This document shows positions 15,001 to 21,000 of a DNA stretch of 64,000 nt, one piece after another. How positions within the stretch are numbered: position 1 is the stretch's first letter; each line of letters starts with the position of its first letter. Source of the stretch: a plasmid; assembly GCF_054482595.1 (NCBI RefSeq), contig NZ_JBTHVH010000004.1. One strand, written 5' to 3'. A program made the position numbers.

Positions 15001-18000
15001 ACTGGGGTTGCCTCCTGAAGTTGGGTTTCAGTTCTGGGCTAGGTTGCTAACTCTGCTCCCATAATTCGTAGTGGGCCTACTCAAGAGATTAACACCTCAT
15101 ATCTTTAGACTGGACTGACGACAACGATTCACAGTTAGGAAACGTAAATCAGCACACCGGTGAGATAGATTTTAGGGTCTAAGCAAGAAATAGGGTAGGC
15201 GTGAAGATTCATTAATGGAGCTCATAACGTCAAAGCGTAGAGAAGTCGACAAGAATCGTGGTTTAAAAAGAATGAGCATTAGGTATGGACTAGAGAGTCT
15301 GAGCTCTCATCTGCAAGTTAAGCTCACAAAAAATCATAAAAAAGTAAACAAACATTAGCTTAGGATTGAAACAAAGGATAGAATTGTACGTATAACAATG
15401 AAATGGACGCATTATGCGTAAAGTTTACATATATGCGTAAAAGTCGGTTTTCAGTGCAAAAAGGTCATAACCATGAATTTACTTGAAAAGATCGCCCTCG
15501 TTGGTCAGCGCATGAAAAGCGAGCAGATTTCTCTTAAGGAATCTCTGATGGCTTCATCAAGAGTATCTGTTTCTGATGATAGTGTTGATGGTGTTGATAG
15601 ACTGATCTACAACCACTGTTTAAATAAAAAAAATCTCTCTGATTTTTTTGGGAAGTCACGAGTAACGTTCAATAAAATACTTTCGGACTTAGAAGAAAAA
15701 GAAGTTGTTGGTGCACCTATTTATCAAAACAAAAATCATCTTTACACCCGCTGGGATGTTCAAAAAATAATGGATGCCCTGGGTTATCCCAAGTACCGCG
15801 ATCATTACTTTAGCAGAGCTATTGTTACTCAGAATCATAAAGGCGGTACAGGGAAAAGCACTACATCTGTAGCTTTAGCAGTAGCAGCTGCTTTAGATCT
15901 ACAACTGAATGCACGTGTATTAATGATCGAATGGGACCCACAAGGTTCGATTGGAAGCAGCATGATTCAAAGTGTCTCAGAAGATGATGTCTTCCTTACA
16001 GCAATTGATGCAATCCTTGGAATTTATGAAGAAAATTCTGAGTATAAAAAATATTTAGATTCAGGATTCTCTGAAGAAGAAATCATCACTAATATGCCTT
16101 TTTCAACGCATCTGCCAAACTTGGACGTGATAACGGCATTTCCGACAGATGCTCGTTTTAAAGATAAATACTGGCAATGTTCTAGAGAAGAACGAACGTC
16201 TTTGTTACTACGTTTCAAGGAAGTTATCTTACCGGTACTGAAGCAGAACTATGATTTGATTATTATAGACACTCCACCTGAAGATTCACCTTTGATCTGG
16301 GCTGCTGACGAAGCGGCCGATGGGATTCTTGTCGCAGTGTCACCACGTGAATATGATTACGCCTCTACTACAGACTTCATGCTTACAATAAGTGAAAGGT
16401 TTAAACAATCACCAAGTAAGGGCGATAATTTAAAATGGTTCAAAGTTCTTGCTGTCAATGTTGATGACAAAAGTCCATATGAAAGAATAGTTTTGGATAA
16501 ATTAATCAGAACTGTTCAGGACCTTTTGATGTCCGCTAACATAAAAAATTCTGAAGCATTTAAGGCAGCTGCTTCCAAAGGGCGTACAGTGCTTGATATC
16601 AAAAAATCAGAGGAACTTTGTTCCGCAAAGCAACTTGATGTCGCAGAAGAATCTGTATTACAGGTATATCAACAATTTATAAATGAAATAAAAAGTTTTT
16701 CAGCTAAGCAAGGAGTTAACGCATGAGCGATGAGCAACATATCGGGAATGATAAATCTCGATATTTAAACGCACCAAAGCGGACAGAAGTCGGTCACCGT
16801 TCAGGTCTTGCGGGTTTGAAAACAGCACCTCGCATAAAAAAGTTATTCACTCTTCATAAGGGCCGAAGACTTGAAGCGGAACATGTGATTGTTCCAGCCC
16901 AGAGAGTGGAGAAGGAGACCTTAGTCCATCCAGCAAACCCACGAAATCAAGAAGCCCTTACAGATTATTCTGTTAGAGATATTCTTAAGCAGATTGAAGA
17001 AAGAGGGGTCGATACCGAAGGGATCGCTGTAAAAAGAGATGGGGTTTATTTATTAATAGAAGGAAGTCGCAGACGTTTCTGCTGTATAAAGGCAGAAAAG
17101 GATCTCCCCCTGTGGGTACTACCGGATGAACTAACCGAAGATGATATAAATTCAATTATATCCGCAGCACAAACATCTCGAAAATTTTCATATAGAGAAG
17201 TTGGGTTTCAATTTATCAAGAAAATGGAAGAAAAGGGATTTTCTACTAATGAAGAACTCGCAGCATATCTTGGGATTAGTCATGTATCGGTAGCCAAAAG
17301 AATCCAGGCGGCACGTATTGACGAAACATTGATCTCTTTATTCCCGGATTATGAAGGAATACCGAACTCCTATTATAGTCGCTTGTCTCGTTTACAGAAA
17401 TATGTGCAAAAAAATCTATTTCCTTTAGATGAAGTAATAGATAATGTTAAAGAGGAAACAAAAGATTTAGACATTGGAGATCTCCAAGTTGCCCAAAAAG
17501 TTGTAATGGAGAAAATCACACAATCTGTGGAAAGTGTTTGTGAAAAATCTTATTCCACAAAATGGGAAACAAGTGATCTTATTACTTTTGATAACAAAGA
17601 TAAGTATGCAAGAATCAGTAAAAACAATACTGGAAGAAAAATTCGCATTGAATTCAATAGGATAAGTGCGGGTTTTATTAAGGAGCTAGAGGAGTTCATA
17701 AAAGAAAAATTAAAAGTATCAGAATAAATATTGAACTGCATCTTTATGATGCAGTTCATATGATTTATATTTTTAATTTCTTGTTATATTAATATGGGGT
17801 GTGCGCAGGTTCAGACATATAAGGTCTTAGTTCTATATGAACAGAAGCGCCATTCCCATCATTTACTACGTTTAAAGGTGCTTTGCCCGGCAATGACATA
17901 GTTGCAACGTCAGGTCCAGAAACAGCAAAATTATTTTCTGCTGAAGGCATTACTGTAAAAATCTTTATAGCAACATTTTCATGTCTAAATAAAGAAATCC

Positions 18001-21000
18001 CAAAAGTAGAACCAGCTTCGGTATTGCTCACGTCCACAACCACAGGGGTTTTTCCTAGATATTCATTAGTTAGTATGTTTTTTACTAATGCCCCTTCCGG
18101 GACAGTATAGATACGGTATGGATATGCTAAAACTGAGTGACAAAAACATAATAAAATAACAATTAATGTTTTTTTCATAGATTATCCTCATTCAAAAATA
18201 AAAGATATAACTCTTGAAAATCGTGGTTATTAATTAGGTCCGCTTTTCCGGGAAAATCGTAACTAACAGAAAATAAAAGAGAAAGAGAATCTTTTCCTTT
18301 TGCTTTGGGAGAGATTCTGCTAAAAGCACGGTTAATAAACATAAGTTGATCTTCATTGTTGAAGCAAAGTCCAAGCATTCCAACCGTAGGAACTACGAAT
18401 GTGCTTACGCTGCCTGGGGGCAAAAGTTGCTTACTACGGGCATTGTAAGCACAACGACTACCACCTAGCGTTAGGCCTGAAAGCTCAATAAAACTTCTGG
18501 TTCCATTCTTGGCGACAAGCCAAACATCAGTTCCTGAACTTTCGACACGTAAAGTAACTTTTCCGTCAGTAAAGGCCTCACTTTTATTGTATAGAATAGG
18601 GTCAAAACCAACTATCGGGAGTTCTTCGATTTTACTTTCTACTGACTGACAACCAGTCAGTAATGCAAACAATAAAAGTGTGATAACTTTAATCATCCCG
18701 CTTCCTTAGATTGTTTTTGGCGCTGGTTATAAAAGATAATGATTCACCGGGGTAGAGAATTGTTTCTTTCGTCCAATAACGATAACCACCGAGGATATCT
18801 TTTCTTTTCTCAATATAAACCGGTTCAGAAAATTCTAAATGTTGATATTTCGGAAGAGATAAGATTTTATATTTTACTTGTCCAACTAAGAGGTAATTCT
18901 TCTCTTTAGGATTGATGGTTACTGAATTACCAACACTTTGAGGTATGTTAAGTTTTTTTATATTTAGATCAGAATCGTCAGGAACGGACACTTGATCATT
19001 AGATGTCTTTCCGGGAAGAGTAAACCCTTTACCCTGATCCGGTCCAAAGATGGCAATTACATCTTTGTTGTTTCTTGTGATCGAAACGATAGCCTGAAGG
19101 GGCGTATTAGCAAGGTCATTTATAAACGATATAGTTATACTTGATTTAGGCTCGACCCAAATAATGCTTTTTCCGGATGTGCCTTCGCTTAATGCAATTT
19201 TTTCATTTAGTAAGATTTTATTTTTGGCAATGATATTATACTCAAGTTTCGGTATCACCATAAAAAGTGATTCTTTATTTGAAACATTCATGATTTCTAA
19301 GAAATTGGTTTTGGTCATGCTGGTCTTTAGAACAGGCCTATATTTACCATTTATAAACCACCTTCCGTTTATAAGCTCCGCTTTAGCAGATATAAGTGAA
19401 TCACTTTTCTGAGCGGCAGAAGAAAAAGCATCTTTTCTTTGCTCTTTCTCTTGATGTGGTGCAGCTGCTGCGTGAAGATGCAAAAGTAATGTTGAAATTG
19501 AGATAATCTTCCATTTTATCTTCATCTTGTTACCTCAATGTTGTTTTCAATCGAATCGAGTTCTAACGGATAGGTTTTAAGTGAATAAAACTTGTTTGTT
19601 GTTTGTATTAGCTGATGACACAATAAAACTGGATTGTTCTTCATGATTATTTCTACTAATGTAAGTGCTGGTGAGTCAGTTGGCGGTATACCCGGAGCAA
19701 CTATTACCTGGTCTTCTAATTTTGACATATAGAGTGATCCAGTATTTATATGTAAACAATTACCGATCAGTACTGGAAGATTGTTTTGAGTACGACCATG
19801 GGCTTTTCGAATGCTGTTTACAGGATTCCTACCTAGGACCATAAGGTTGACGTCATTTATCATCATTGGTATTACGGCATGGTCCATACCGAATAGAAAC
19901 TGGCTCTGAAAAATATTCACATTGGCATAGTTGAATGCTTGAAGCGCATTATAAGTATCAGTGAATGATGTGCGGATAGGGGCGTAATCAGAAGGGCAAA
20001 CCCCAATTTTTATATCGCCTTTGAGTAAAATCTGCATCATCGTACCAAGCTGGGTATTAAGAAGTTTTTTTACCTCTTCCTCTAAATAGTAACGATTTAC
20101 AGCTTTATGCCACTTTCCGCCCATTACACACCATCTCTCATTGAGGTATGTGCTGGGGTAAAATGTTCTCCGGTCTTTGTTTAATGGTAACAATTTTTTT
20201 AACATTTCTTCTCCGGCTCCGGCAGCTGAGAAATGCCTCACAAAACGTCCATCGAAAAAGCCACTGTTTATCGCCTTCATCAACTCTATGGGTTCCGGCC
20301 CATAGTCAAACAAATTTCCAGTAGAGAAAATTACTATCTCTTCTTCTGGCTTTGTAACTGATTGAATCAAGTTGCACAGCGCAGAGTAATGTCCATGAGG
20401 ATCTGCCAGAAAGAAAATCCTTCCCGAGAAGTTTGTAAGGTCTATAGTTTGGACGTGCTCAGCTGCCATAAATTCCTCTACGTATGTTTACATCGATGAT
20501 ACGGTATTTCGAGCTATGATTTTTTTACATAAAGGCGTCATTTTGGATTCTAAGCCTAAGGACCTTTGTTACTTACTGGTAAAGGCTCCAGTCCTGGCTC
20601 TCAAACAGTTCATACTTAGGATGCAAAGTAACTTTCTGATTATAATTGGCTCCTTTATAAACATGTTTACTTCATGAATACAGGATATTTAACGGTAATG
20701 TATTTAAAATGGAAGGATGCTGAAATAACATAGAGTTACGTATTTTTTTAATAGTGTTGATGTTGATAATAGGTCACCATTAATGTATAAAGTTAATATC
20801 TAATATGGTCCTATTAATAAAAGAGAGTTTTTATGGCTGAACTATTAAAATCTGAAAGTCCTGTTTCACAATCATTGCAGGATATCACTGAAGCTTTAAA
20901 AATCGTTGTCGATGATGGAAGTAAAGCTGCAAAACTGGTTTGTCTTAATGAAAGAAACGAATTAGTTCCCTTGCTCACACAAAATAGTTTTGTTCCAGAT

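What the first reader, a model, noticed from the sequence alone, without database searches (positions are those of the whole stretch)
17789..20469. Four-gene translationally coupled operon: catalytically degenerate lambda-phosphatase-like protein plus three exported proteins, between the two partition modules
The minus-strand genes overlap by 4, 8 and 4 nt.

The first product has the calcineurin-like fold signature, but the metal and catalytic residues are mostly replaced:
- GDxHG is ADPHG;
- GDxxDRG is GNLFDYG;
- GNHE is GAGEE;
- the CHADY histidine position reads CPSDY;
- GHTP reads GRNP.

It is therefore probably a pseudo-enzyme, or it uses different chemistry. It lacks a signal peptide.

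The three downstream products are exported: a 278-aa protein with a signal peptide, a 173-aa lipoprotein (LLTGC), and a 129-aa protein with a signal peptide.

A cytoplasmic pseudo-phosphatase tightly coupled to an envelope trio has no obvious precedent. One possibility is that part of this operon, or the lipoprotein at 37615-38487, corresponds to the IncHI entry-exclusion functions that have been mapped to Tra2. I cannot confirm that from memory.
Basis: partly seen in the sequence, partly recalled or inferred. Interest (0 to 1): 0.6.

Follow-up and report, generated by a model that had tools for sequence, protein, structure and literature searches.

The report
IncHI plasmid Z operon: trhO-eexB-lipoprotein-trhZ
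The four overlapping genes are the IncHI2 copy of the already described "Z operon" of IncHI resistance plasmids, which carries the entry-exclusion gene eexB and two transfer-efficiency genes; the only fresh points are that its phosphatase-like first protein has lost the catalytic residues in every relative found and that EexB is predicted to be a copper-free cupredoxin protein.

Summary
Four minus-strand ORFs (315, 278, 173 and 129 aa) overlap by 4, 8 and 4 nt and lie between parA/parB and parM/parR.

It is not unprecedented. The window is an IncHI2 backbone, and the genes are orthologues of R27 R0015-R0018 at 72, 42, 57 and 78% identity. A held paper labels these as trhO "phosphodiesterase", eexB "exclusion protein", a lipoprotein and trhZ. 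[quoted passage not shown]

The same cassette sits next to traC in IncHI1B, in an IncHI5-like plasmid and in two more distant elements, with or without partition genes.

TrhO has the lambda-phosphatase fold. It keeps only D23, H25 and D55 of nine catalytic positions, and every TrhO-type relative examined has several of them replaced. Within IncHI2 it is under strong purifying selection (omega 0.04), so it is most likely a functional pseudo-enzyme.

EexB is modelled as two cupredoxin-like domains without copper ligands, and it evolves fastest (omega 0.47).

Verdict: a known system with modest new structural detail. Which gene is eexA could not be checked.

The parts
19522..20469 (-). trhO orthologue (315 aa). 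A cytoplasmic protein with the lambda-phosphatase (PPP) fold and a degenerate active site. It is the first gene of the Z operon.
   Evidence: - ORF; 72% identical to R27 R0015; named TrhO in UniRef; R0015 is labelled trhO.
- Pfam Metallophos 24.4 bits; phmmer to 1g5b; Foldseek 1g5b E = 4.4e-9.
- Motif changes.
- Omega 0.04 within IncHI2.
18689..19525 (-). eexB orthologue (278 aa). An exported protein, predicted to consist of two cupredoxin-like domains without copper ligands.
   Evidence: - ORF; 42% identical to R27 R0016, which is labelled 'eexB, exclusion protein'.
- hhalign probability 96-98% to the second gene of distant cassettes.
- No Cys at all and no invariant His.
- Omega 0.47.
18175..18696 (-). 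Lipoprotein (173 aa), the orthologue of R27 R0017. It may be EexA; that assignment is unverified.
   Evidence: - ORF; lipobox LTGC with Gln at +2.
- 57% identical to R0017, labelled 'lipoprotein (Z)'.
- Cys16, Cys82 and Cys111 are invariant across six cassettes.
17789..18178 (-). trhZ orthologue (129 aa). A small exported protein with a weak PEGA-domain resemblance. It is the last gene of the operon.
   Evidence: - ORF; 77.5% identical to R27 R0018, labelled trhZ; named TrhZ in UniRef.
- Five of six orthologues give sub-threshold PEGA hits, best E = 0.0038.
17732..17758 (.). An 11-bp-stem hairpin between the convergent parB and trhZ genes, read as a likely bidirectional terminator.
   Evidence: The terminator scan finds it on both strands. 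The sequence is shown.
20470..20832 (.). The 363-bp divergent intergenic region between trhO and parM, the presumed site of the Z-operon promoter.
   Evidence: - The sigma-70 consensus scan finds no site here. This fits the activator dependence (TrhR/TrhY) reported for the R27 Z operon.
- The region is partly conserved with R27.
- The promoter position is inferred, not shown.

Best explanation
This is the IncHI2 orthologue of the 'Z operon' in transfer region 2 (Tra2) of IncHI plasmids: trhO, eexB, the R0017-type lipoprotein and trhZ. The four genes are transcribed together from the trhO-parM intergenic region and are translationally coupled.

What is documented for R27:
- R0016 is labelled eexB. 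EexB fractionates with the outer membrane. Together with EexA it is needed in both donor and recipient for exclusion.
- trhO and trhZ raise transfer frequency.
- Transcription needs the TrhR/TrhY activators and is held down by HtdA.

What I infer from the sequence:
- The three exported products form the envelope part of the system. EexB is a copper-free two-cupredoxin-domain protein, and it and the lipoprotein are the fast-evolving members. The pattern fits recognition or specificity components that act by like-with-like contact between mating cells.
- TrhO stays in the cytoplasm. It is a lambda-phosphatase-fold protein that has lost the second metal site, the bridging aspartate and the catalytic histidine, yet it is tightly conserved. 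It most likely works without catalysis, as a binding or scaffold subunit that supports efficient mating-pair function.
For: Identity of the plasmid and the operon:
- The window matches 1127 plasmids, and the fetched example is typed IncHI2A.
- R27 has the same four genes in the same place, at 72, 42, 57 and 77.5% identity.
- R0015-R0018 are labelled trhO, eexB, lipoprotein and trhZ, all marked '(Z)'. [quoted passage not shown]
- In the htdA mutant of R27 at 25 deg C the four genes rise together, by 8.3-, 12.1-, 17.1- and 16.0-fold.
- trhO and trhZ are reported to raise transfer frequency.
- EexB is reported in the outer membrane, and EexA and EexB are needed in both donor and recipient.

An old module of the transfer region:
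- The cassette is kept next to traC in an IncHI1B plasmid, an IncHI5-like plasmid and two distant metagenomic elements.
- Homology holds for each of the four positions.

TrhO as a pseudo-enzyme:
- Canonical neighbours in the same search keep GDxHG, GDLxDRG, GNHE, CHAEY and GHT.
- New motifs are invariant within the IncHI1/2-type TrhO group.
- Omega is 0.04.

EexB:
- Protein divergence (dN) between IncHI1 and IncHI2 is 0.58 for EexB and 0.40 for the lipoprotein, against 0.08-0.23 for the other five genes, TrhO and TrhZ included.
Against: - No function was tested for the IncHI2 genes. EexB is only 42% identical to the R27 protein.
- The primary papers (Lawley 2003, Gunton 2008, Alonso 2005) are not in the held library. 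The R27 facts come from later papers that cite them.
- Which gene is eexA is unverified.
- The TrhO model is only moderate (pLDDT 66). D23, N52 and D55 are invariant, so a one-metal or otherwise altered catalytic site cannot be excluded.
- The omega values rest on few substitutions (8-22 per gene).
- Synonymous divergence between IncHI1 and IncHI2 is saturated.
- The cupredoxin fold of EexB rests on a predicted model, not a solved structure.
Confidence: 0.85

Rival explanations
1. TrhO is still an enzyme with altered chemistry. For example, it could be a single-metal phosphoesterase or nucleotide hydrolase that uses D23, N52 and D55, and that acts on a conjugation component or a signalling nucleotide.
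For: - D23, N52 and D55 are invariant across the IncHI1/2-type TrhO group, and the GN.FD signature is kept in all distant TrhO-like proteins.
- Purifying selection is strong.
- The R27 table calls it a 'phosphodiesterase'.
Against: - All three ligands of the second metal (N75, H139, H186) are replaced, as are the general-acid His76 and Arg53.
- The motif I His varies among H, Y and C within the IncHI1/2-type group, and is Q, Y or R in three of the five distant members.
- The replaced positions differ from one TrhO-type subgroup to another (GAGE, GQQE, GFHE, GADE), so no single alternative catalytic set is conserved.
Confidence: 0.2
2. The operon is an accessory of the two partition systems that flank it, for example an envelope anchor for plasmid positioning, rather than a conjugation or exclusion module.
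For: - It sits exactly between parA/parB and parM/parR in IncHI1 and IncHI2.
- It shares a divergent intergenic region with parM.
- parM also lies beside it in two distant elements.
Against: - In IncHI1B and IncHI5-like plasmids the same cassette lies between htdA and traC with no par genes at all.
- In every element examined, traC is the first conjugation gene beyond trhZ. It is immediately downstream except in IncHI1/IncHI2, where parA/parB lie between.
- In R27 the four genes respond to the conjugation regulator HtdA, while parM, parA and parB do not (fold changes 1.02, -1.04 and 1.00).
- The literature assigns exclusion and transfer-frequency roles.
Confidence: 0.03
3. The operon is an anti-phage or other defence cassette carried as cargo in the plasmid backbone.
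For: It combines a cytoplasmic enzyme-like protein with envelope proteins of unknown function, and it has a low G+C content of 0.32-0.41.
Against: - None of the four proteins hits PADLOC.
- The G+C content matches the surrounding backbone.
- The cassette is fixed within the transfer region across IncHI types and is regulated together with the tra genes.
Confidence: 0.02

Closest known systems
R27 (IncHI1) Z operon of Tra2: trhO (R0015), eexB (R0016), R0017 lipoprotein, trhZ (R0018)
   Same: - Same gene order, strand relations, sizes (323/279/173/130 aa against 315/278/173/129 aa) and overlapping junctions.
- Same position between parB and parM.
- All four proteins are orthologous.
   Different: - This is the IncHI2 version. 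EexB is only 42% and the lipoprotein 57% identical, against 71-89% for the neighbouring genes.
- None of the R27 phenotypes has been tested here.
Bacteriophage lambda Ser/Thr phosphatase (PDB 1g5b) and E. coli PrpA/PrpB (PPP-type metallophosphoesterases)
   Same: - Best sequence and fold match for TrhO.
- Same order of motifs I-V along the chain.
   Different: - Six of nine catalytic or metal-binding positions are replaced.
- TrhO has an insertion around residues 88-110 and an extra beta-rich C-terminal region of about 70 residues.
- NCBIfam scores are far below the PrpA/PrpB cut-offs: 23.6 against 332 bits.
Vps29 (retromer subunit), a metallophosphoesterase-fold protein that works as a scaffold
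   Same: - It appears among the fold matches of the TrhO model (5w8m, E = 9e-4).
- From general knowledge, it is a precedent for this fold being kept for binding rather than catalysis.
   Different: - It is eukaryotic and there is no sequence relationship beyond the fold.
- The analogy concerns mode of action only and was not tested.
Multicopper oxidases and the copper-free relative SufI/FtsP (PDB 2uxt)
   Different: - EexB has two domains rather than three.
- It has no cysteine and no conserved histidine, so no copper site.
- Sequence identity is only 9-15%.
Other plasmid exclusion proteins: F TraT and TraS, RP4 TrbK, SXT/R391 Eex, IncC Sfx
   Same: They are small envelope proteins encoded within transfer regions that block redundant mating. 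From memory, RP4 TrbK is itself a lipoprotein, as the R0017-type protein is; its paper title was seen.
   Different: - None of the four proteins gave any Pfam or NCBIfam hit to those families.
- The IncHI proteins are reported to be needed in both donor and recipient, unlike most of the other systems.

Membership tests
IncHI Tra2 Z operon (trhO-eexB-R0017-trhZ) | Four same-strand genes between parB and parM in an IncHI backbone | tested here: met
IncHI Tra2 Z operon (trhO-eexB-R0017-trhZ) | Each product is orthologous to R27 R0015, R0016, R0017 and R0018 | tested here: met
   72, 42, 57 and 77.5% identity over the full length. UniRef names TrhO and TrhZ.
IncHI Tra2 Z operon (trhO-eexB-R0017-trhZ) | Co-transcription under TrhR/TrhY and HtdA control | not testable with these tools
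   Known only for R27. Here there are only overlapping junctions, one upstream intergenic region and one terminator-like hairpin.
IncHI Tra2 Z operon (trhO-eexB-R0017-trhZ) | Entry-exclusion phenotype, and reduced transfer when trhO or trhZ is mutated | not testable with these tools
   Reported for R27 in secondary sources. Needs mating assays.
PPP-type metallophosphoesterase (lambda PP, PrpA, PrpB) | Calcineurin-like fold | tested here: met
   Pfam PF00149, 24.4 bits against a cut-off of 21.5. Foldseek 1g5b, E = 4.4e-9, probability 1.00.
PPP-type metallophosphoesterase (lambda PP, PrpA, PrpB) | Motif I GDxHG (Asp and His ligands of metal 1) | tested here: inconclusive
   ADPHG keeps D23 and H25 in this protein. 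The His varies (H/Y/C, and Q/Y/R in distant members) and the Asp is Asn in two distant members.
PPP-type metallophosphoesterase (lambda PP, PrpA, PrpB) | Motif II GDxxDR (bridging Asp and phosphate-binding Arg) | tested here: not met
   GNLFDYG: D49 -> N52 and R53 -> Y56. The Asn is invariant in all TrhO-type proteins.
PPP-type metallophosphoesterase (lambda PP, PrpA, PrpB) | Motif III GNHE (Asn ligand of metal 2 and general-acid His) | tested here: not met
   GAGE: N75 -> A85 and H76 -> G86.
PPP-type metallophosphoesterase (lambda PP, PrpA, PrpB) | His139 and His186 ligands of metal 2 | tested here: not met
   P159 and R214. The region around residue 159 has low model confidence, but the alignment agrees in three separate runs.
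PPP-type metallophosphoesterase (lambda PP, PrpA, PrpB) | Phosphatase activity | not testable with these tools
   Needs purified protein.
Multicopper oxidase / cupredoxin | Cupredoxin beta-sandwich domains | tested here: met
Multicopper oxidase / cupredoxin | Copper ligands (Cys, His, Met of the type 1 site; HxH motifs of the trinuclear site) | tested here: not met
   There is no cysteine in the protein. No invariant or nearly invariant His, Cys or Met among 18 relatives.
Bacterial lipoprotein | Lipobox [LVI][ASTVI][GAS]C at the end of a signal peptide | tested here: met
   LTGC at residues 13-16. The Cys is invariant in six orthologues.
PEGA domain (PF08308) for TrhZ | Pfam model score above the gathering threshold | tested here: inconclusive
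   16.2 bits against a cut-off of 20.8, and only the first half of the model is matched. Five of six orthologues give similar weak hits.
Known exclusion protein families (TraT, TraS, TrbK, Eex of SXT) | Sequence match to the family model | tested here: not met
   No such Pfam or NCBIfam hit for any of the four proteins at E <= 1.

The most novel reading that the evidence does not exclude
The Z operon is built from two recycled enzyme folds that no longer catalyse anything.

TrhO is a metal-site-dead lambda-phosphatase fold. It would act as a cytoplasmic adaptor for the H-type mating machinery, as Vps29 does in retromer.

EexB is a copper-free tandem cupredoxin. Its fast-evolving surface would set exclusion specificity through like-with-like contact between donor and recipient envelopes.

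Neither point appears in the literature I could search.
Probability: 0.4. Interest if true: 0.45.

Novelty: already known. Interest (0 to 1): 0.25.

Why it matters
IncHI2 plasmids are major carriers of mcr and carbapenemase genes, so their transfer and exclusion functions matter in practice. This operon, however, is already named and partly characterised in the IncHI1 prototype R27, so the finding adds no new system.

What it adds is a sharper hypothesis for two poorly understood proteins:
- TrhO should be treated as a pseudo-phosphatase, not annotated as a 'metallophosphoesterase' or 'phosphodiesterase'.
- EexB has a recognisable cupredoxin-type fold. Its high divergence marks it, together with the lipoprotein, as the likely specificity determinant between IncHI exclusion groups.

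Both points are cheap to test.

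Tried and rejected
- Primary literature. 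The papers on the R27 Tra2 region and on EexA/EexB are not held. I could not confirm which gene is eexA, nor the original trhO and trhZ mutant data.
- Locus-tag and name searches gave nothing further: searches for R0015-R0018, eexA and TrhO plus phosphatase returned nothing useful.
- Database names. No plasmid record or protein cluster names any of these proteins Eex.
- Family scans. NCBIfam gave only far-sub-threshold PrpA/PrpB hits for TrhO, chance-level hits for EexB and nothing for the other two. PADLOC gave nothing. Profile searches of TrhZ and the lipoprotein against PDB sequences gave nothing significant.
- Promoter. The sigma-70 scan found no promoter upstream of trhO.
- Fold library. 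The afdb50 library was unavailable.
- Selection between IncHI1 and IncHI2. dN/dS is unusable because synonymous sites are saturated, so I used two IncHI2 lineages instead.
- Rejected readings: a partition accessory, rejected on the context, and a defence cassette, rejected.

Full report
**1. What is in the sequence**

One search lists four minus-strand ORFs:
- 20469-19522 (315 aa)
- 19525-18689 (278 aa)
- 18696-18175 (173 aa)
- 18178-17789 (129 aa)

The junctions overlap by 4, 8 and 4 nt (ATGA, ATGATTAA, ATGA). Each start codon has a GAGG or AGGA site 6-10 nt upstream.

Upstream of the first gene is a 363-bp intergenic region shared divergently with parM (20833-21870). Downstream of the last gene an 11-bp-stem hairpin (17732-17758) separates it from the convergent parB. 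G+C content is 0.32-0.41 throughout, the same as the flanking backbone.

**2. Where it comes from**

The 2.9-kb block matches 1127 PLSDB plasmids from Escherichia, Salmonella, Enterobacter, Klebsiella and other genera at 95-100% identity; one further record falls in the 80-90% band. The example fetched is typed IncHI2A / MOBH / MPF_F. It shows the surrounding order trhV, traC-family, parA, parB, the four genes, parM, a parR-like gene, htdA and rsp. So the window is the Tra2 region of an IncHI2 plasmid.

**3. It is a named operon**

R27, the IncHI1 prototype, has four genes of 323, 279, 173 and 130 aa in the same place and arrangement. Gibert et al. 2020 (PMC7366339) list them in Tables S3 and S4:

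| R27 gene | Label in the tables |
|---|---|

What the held literature reports:
[quoted passage not shown] - In the htdA mutant at 25 deg C the four genes rise together by 8.3-, 12.1-, 17.1- and 16.0-fold. The adjacent parM, parB and parA do not change.
- Temperature alone does not change the four genes.
- A 2024 review, citing Lawley et al. 2003, says trhO and trhZ increase transfer frequency.
- Rivard et al. 2024 (PMC11493245), citing Gunton et al. [quoted passage not shown] They add that EexA and EexB are needed in both donor and recipient.
- UniRef already names the window's 315-aa and 129-aa proteins TrhO and TrhZ.

Global identities between the window and R27:

| Protein | Identity (%) |
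|---|---|
| TrhO | 72 |
| EexB | 42 |
| Lipoprotein | 57 |
| TrhZ | 77.5 |
| ParA | 89 |
| ParB | 71 |
| ParM | 80 |

The claim of 'no obvious precedent' therefore fails.

I could not verify which gene is eexA, because the primary papers are not held. My guess is that it is the R0017 lipoprotein. That guess rests on the 'Z operon codes for the exclusion system' statement and on the order of genes in the Tra2 map. It remains unverified.

**4. The cassette is older than the partition context**

The same four-gene unit lies between htdA and traC, with no par genes nearby, in two plasmids:
- an IncHI1B Klebsiella plasmid, where TrhO is 267 aa, followed by proteins of 238 and 166 aa and a 138-aa TrhZ, and where the depositors use the names TrhO and trhZ;
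- an IncHI5-like Raoultella plasmid.

Two metagenomic elements carry TrhO-like proteins only 26-29% identical to the window's. They keep the order parR-parM, then divergently a trhO-like gene, a 307-340-aa protein, a lipoprotein and a trhZ-like gene, then convergently traC-traV.

Homology holds at each position:
- TrhO
- second gene (hhalign probability 96-98%)
- lipoprotein
- TrhZ

The cassette therefore belongs with the mating-pair genes and not with partition.

**5. TrhO: fold kept, active site gone**

Evidence for the fold:
- Pfam Metallophos scores just above threshold over residues 17-118.
- phmmer finds lambda phosphatase 1g5b.
- The AF2 model (pLDDT 66, pTM 0.71) has 1g5b as its best Foldseek match (E = 4.4e-9). 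An ApaH-like protein, PP5 and Vps29 follow.

I aligned TrhO against the lambda phosphatase sequence. Its numbering reproduces the published D20, H22, D49, R53, N75, H76, H139, R162 and H186, and two stretches match the tool's own printout. The alignment gives:

| Lambda PP | TrhO (window) |
|---|---|
| D20 | D23 |
| H22 | H25 |
| D49 | N52 |
| D52 | D55 |
| R53 | Y56 |
| N75 | A85 |
| H76 | G86 |
| H139 | P159 |
| H186 | R214 |

The whole second metal site, the bridging Asp, the general-acid His and a phosphate-binding Arg are gone.

The degeneracy runs through all the TrhO-type proteins found:
- Among 14 clusters 45-100% identical, GNLFD(Y/N)GP, (A/T)G(A/F)GE, SDY and GR(N/H) are conserved. 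The motif I His varies among H, Y and C.
- A profile search of 1.84 billion representatives finds only a handful of full-length TrhO-type proteins, then a tail of ordinary 210-290-aa phosphatases.
- In the joint alignment those ordinary proteins keep GDxHG, GDLxDRG, GNHE, CHAEY and GHT. Every TrhO-type protein has GN.FD and a different wreck of the other motifs.

TrhO is nevertheless strongly constrained. Between two IncHI2 lineages it has 8 nucleotide differences but only one amino-acid change, giving omega 0.04. ParA has 0.02.

This is the signature of a working protein that no longer performs binuclear phosphoester hydrolysis. A reduced or altered chemistry using D23, N52 and D55 cannot be excluded, and I give it about 0.2. 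The held literature I could search does not discuss this degeneracy.

**6. The three exported proteins**

Simple sequence rules support export. The 278-aa and 129-aa proteins have N-terminal hydrophobic leaders, and there are no internal membrane-spanning stretches. The 173-aa protein has a lipobox (LTGC, with Gln at +2). The same features appear in all other cassettes. The lipoprotein also has two further invariant cysteines, C82 and C111, which fits a periplasmic disulfide.

EexB:
- The AF2 model is confident outside the leader, the linker and one loop (mean pLDDT 79, with 166 residues above 90).
- The protein has no cysteine, and no His, Cys or Met is invariant or nearly invariant among 18 relatives. 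It cannot form the copper sites.

TrhZ contains 'VPEGALV...GKTP', and five of six orthologues give sub-threshold PEGA-domain hits. This is a hint only.

EexB is the fastest-evolving member:
- dN between IncHI1 and IncHI2 is 0.58. The lipoprotein has 0.40 and all other genes 0.08-0.23.
- Within IncHI2, 14 of its 22 nucleotide differences change the protein, giving omega 0.47.

That pattern is what one expects of a recognition or specificity component of an exclusion system. The numbers are small.

**7. How it most likely works**

Documented for R27:
- The operon is activated by TrhR/TrhY and damped by HtdA.
- It carries exclusion activity, which requires the Eex proteins in both mating partners.
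- EexB is in the outer membrane.
- trhO and trhZ raise transfer frequency.

Inferred here:
- The same holds for IncHI2.
- The envelope trio acts at the cell surface or in the periplasm, with EexB and the lipoprotein as specificity-bearing parts.
- TrhO acts in the cytoplasm without catalysis, as an adaptor or scaffold.

How a cytoplasmic protein and three exported ones cooperate is unknown. Tight translational coupling suggests matched amounts but does not prove a complex.

**8. Rivals**

- Altered-chemistry enzyme: 0.2 (section 5).
- Partition accessory: rejected, because the cassette occurs without par genes and is regulated with the tra genes and not the par genes.
- Defence cassette: rejected. 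There are no PADLOC hits and the position inside the transfer region is fixed.

**9. Verdict**

The system is already known: it is the Z operon of IncHI plasmids.

The residual novelty is modest:
- TrhO is a pseudo-phosphatase in every relative found.
- EexB is predicted to be a copper-free tandem cupredoxin.
- The exclusion-linked genes evolve fastest.

Interest: 0.25.

Noticed in passing
window 22457-23800 (approx.), overlapping ORF 21882-22547: An IS3-family (IS2-like) element, present in thousands of E. coli genomes, begins inside the last ~90 nt of the parR-like gene. G+C content jumps from 0.37 to 0.55 at that point. In another IncHI2 plasmid (L001) a different element, IS903B, follows a shorter 170-aa parR-like gene. 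The 3' end of parR therefore looks like a recurrent insertion site.
   Followed up: partly
It has no name or function in the R27 tables, yet it is one of the more strongly expressed genes there (9779 and 5433 units).
   Followed up: partly
L002 (R27) 20184-21155: RefSeq starts R27 trhO eight codons upstream (323 aa) of the start used by most database entries and by the IncHI2 gene (315 aa). The shorter start aligns with all relatives.
   Followed up: no
L005 8462-8962 (-): In one distant cassette a YdjM-family gene on the opposite strand sits between the lipoprotein gene and the trhZ-like gene. The four genes are therefore not always contiguous.
   Followed up: no
window 20470-20832 and L002 19835-20183: The parM-proximal half of the trhO-parM intergenic region has several short blocks conserved between IncHI2 and R27, for example TTTATACA..AATGGT, TCAACAT and ATCCTTC..TTTTAA. 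They could be ParR-binding (centromere-like) sites or regulator sites. I did not analyse them further.
   Followed up: no
PMC7366339, supplementary Table S4: In the first rows of Table S4, as held in text form, the gene-name column is shifted relative to Table S3. For example, R0001 is labelled trhI and R0004 is labelled trhN. The labels for R0015-R0018 agree between the two tables.
   Followed up: no
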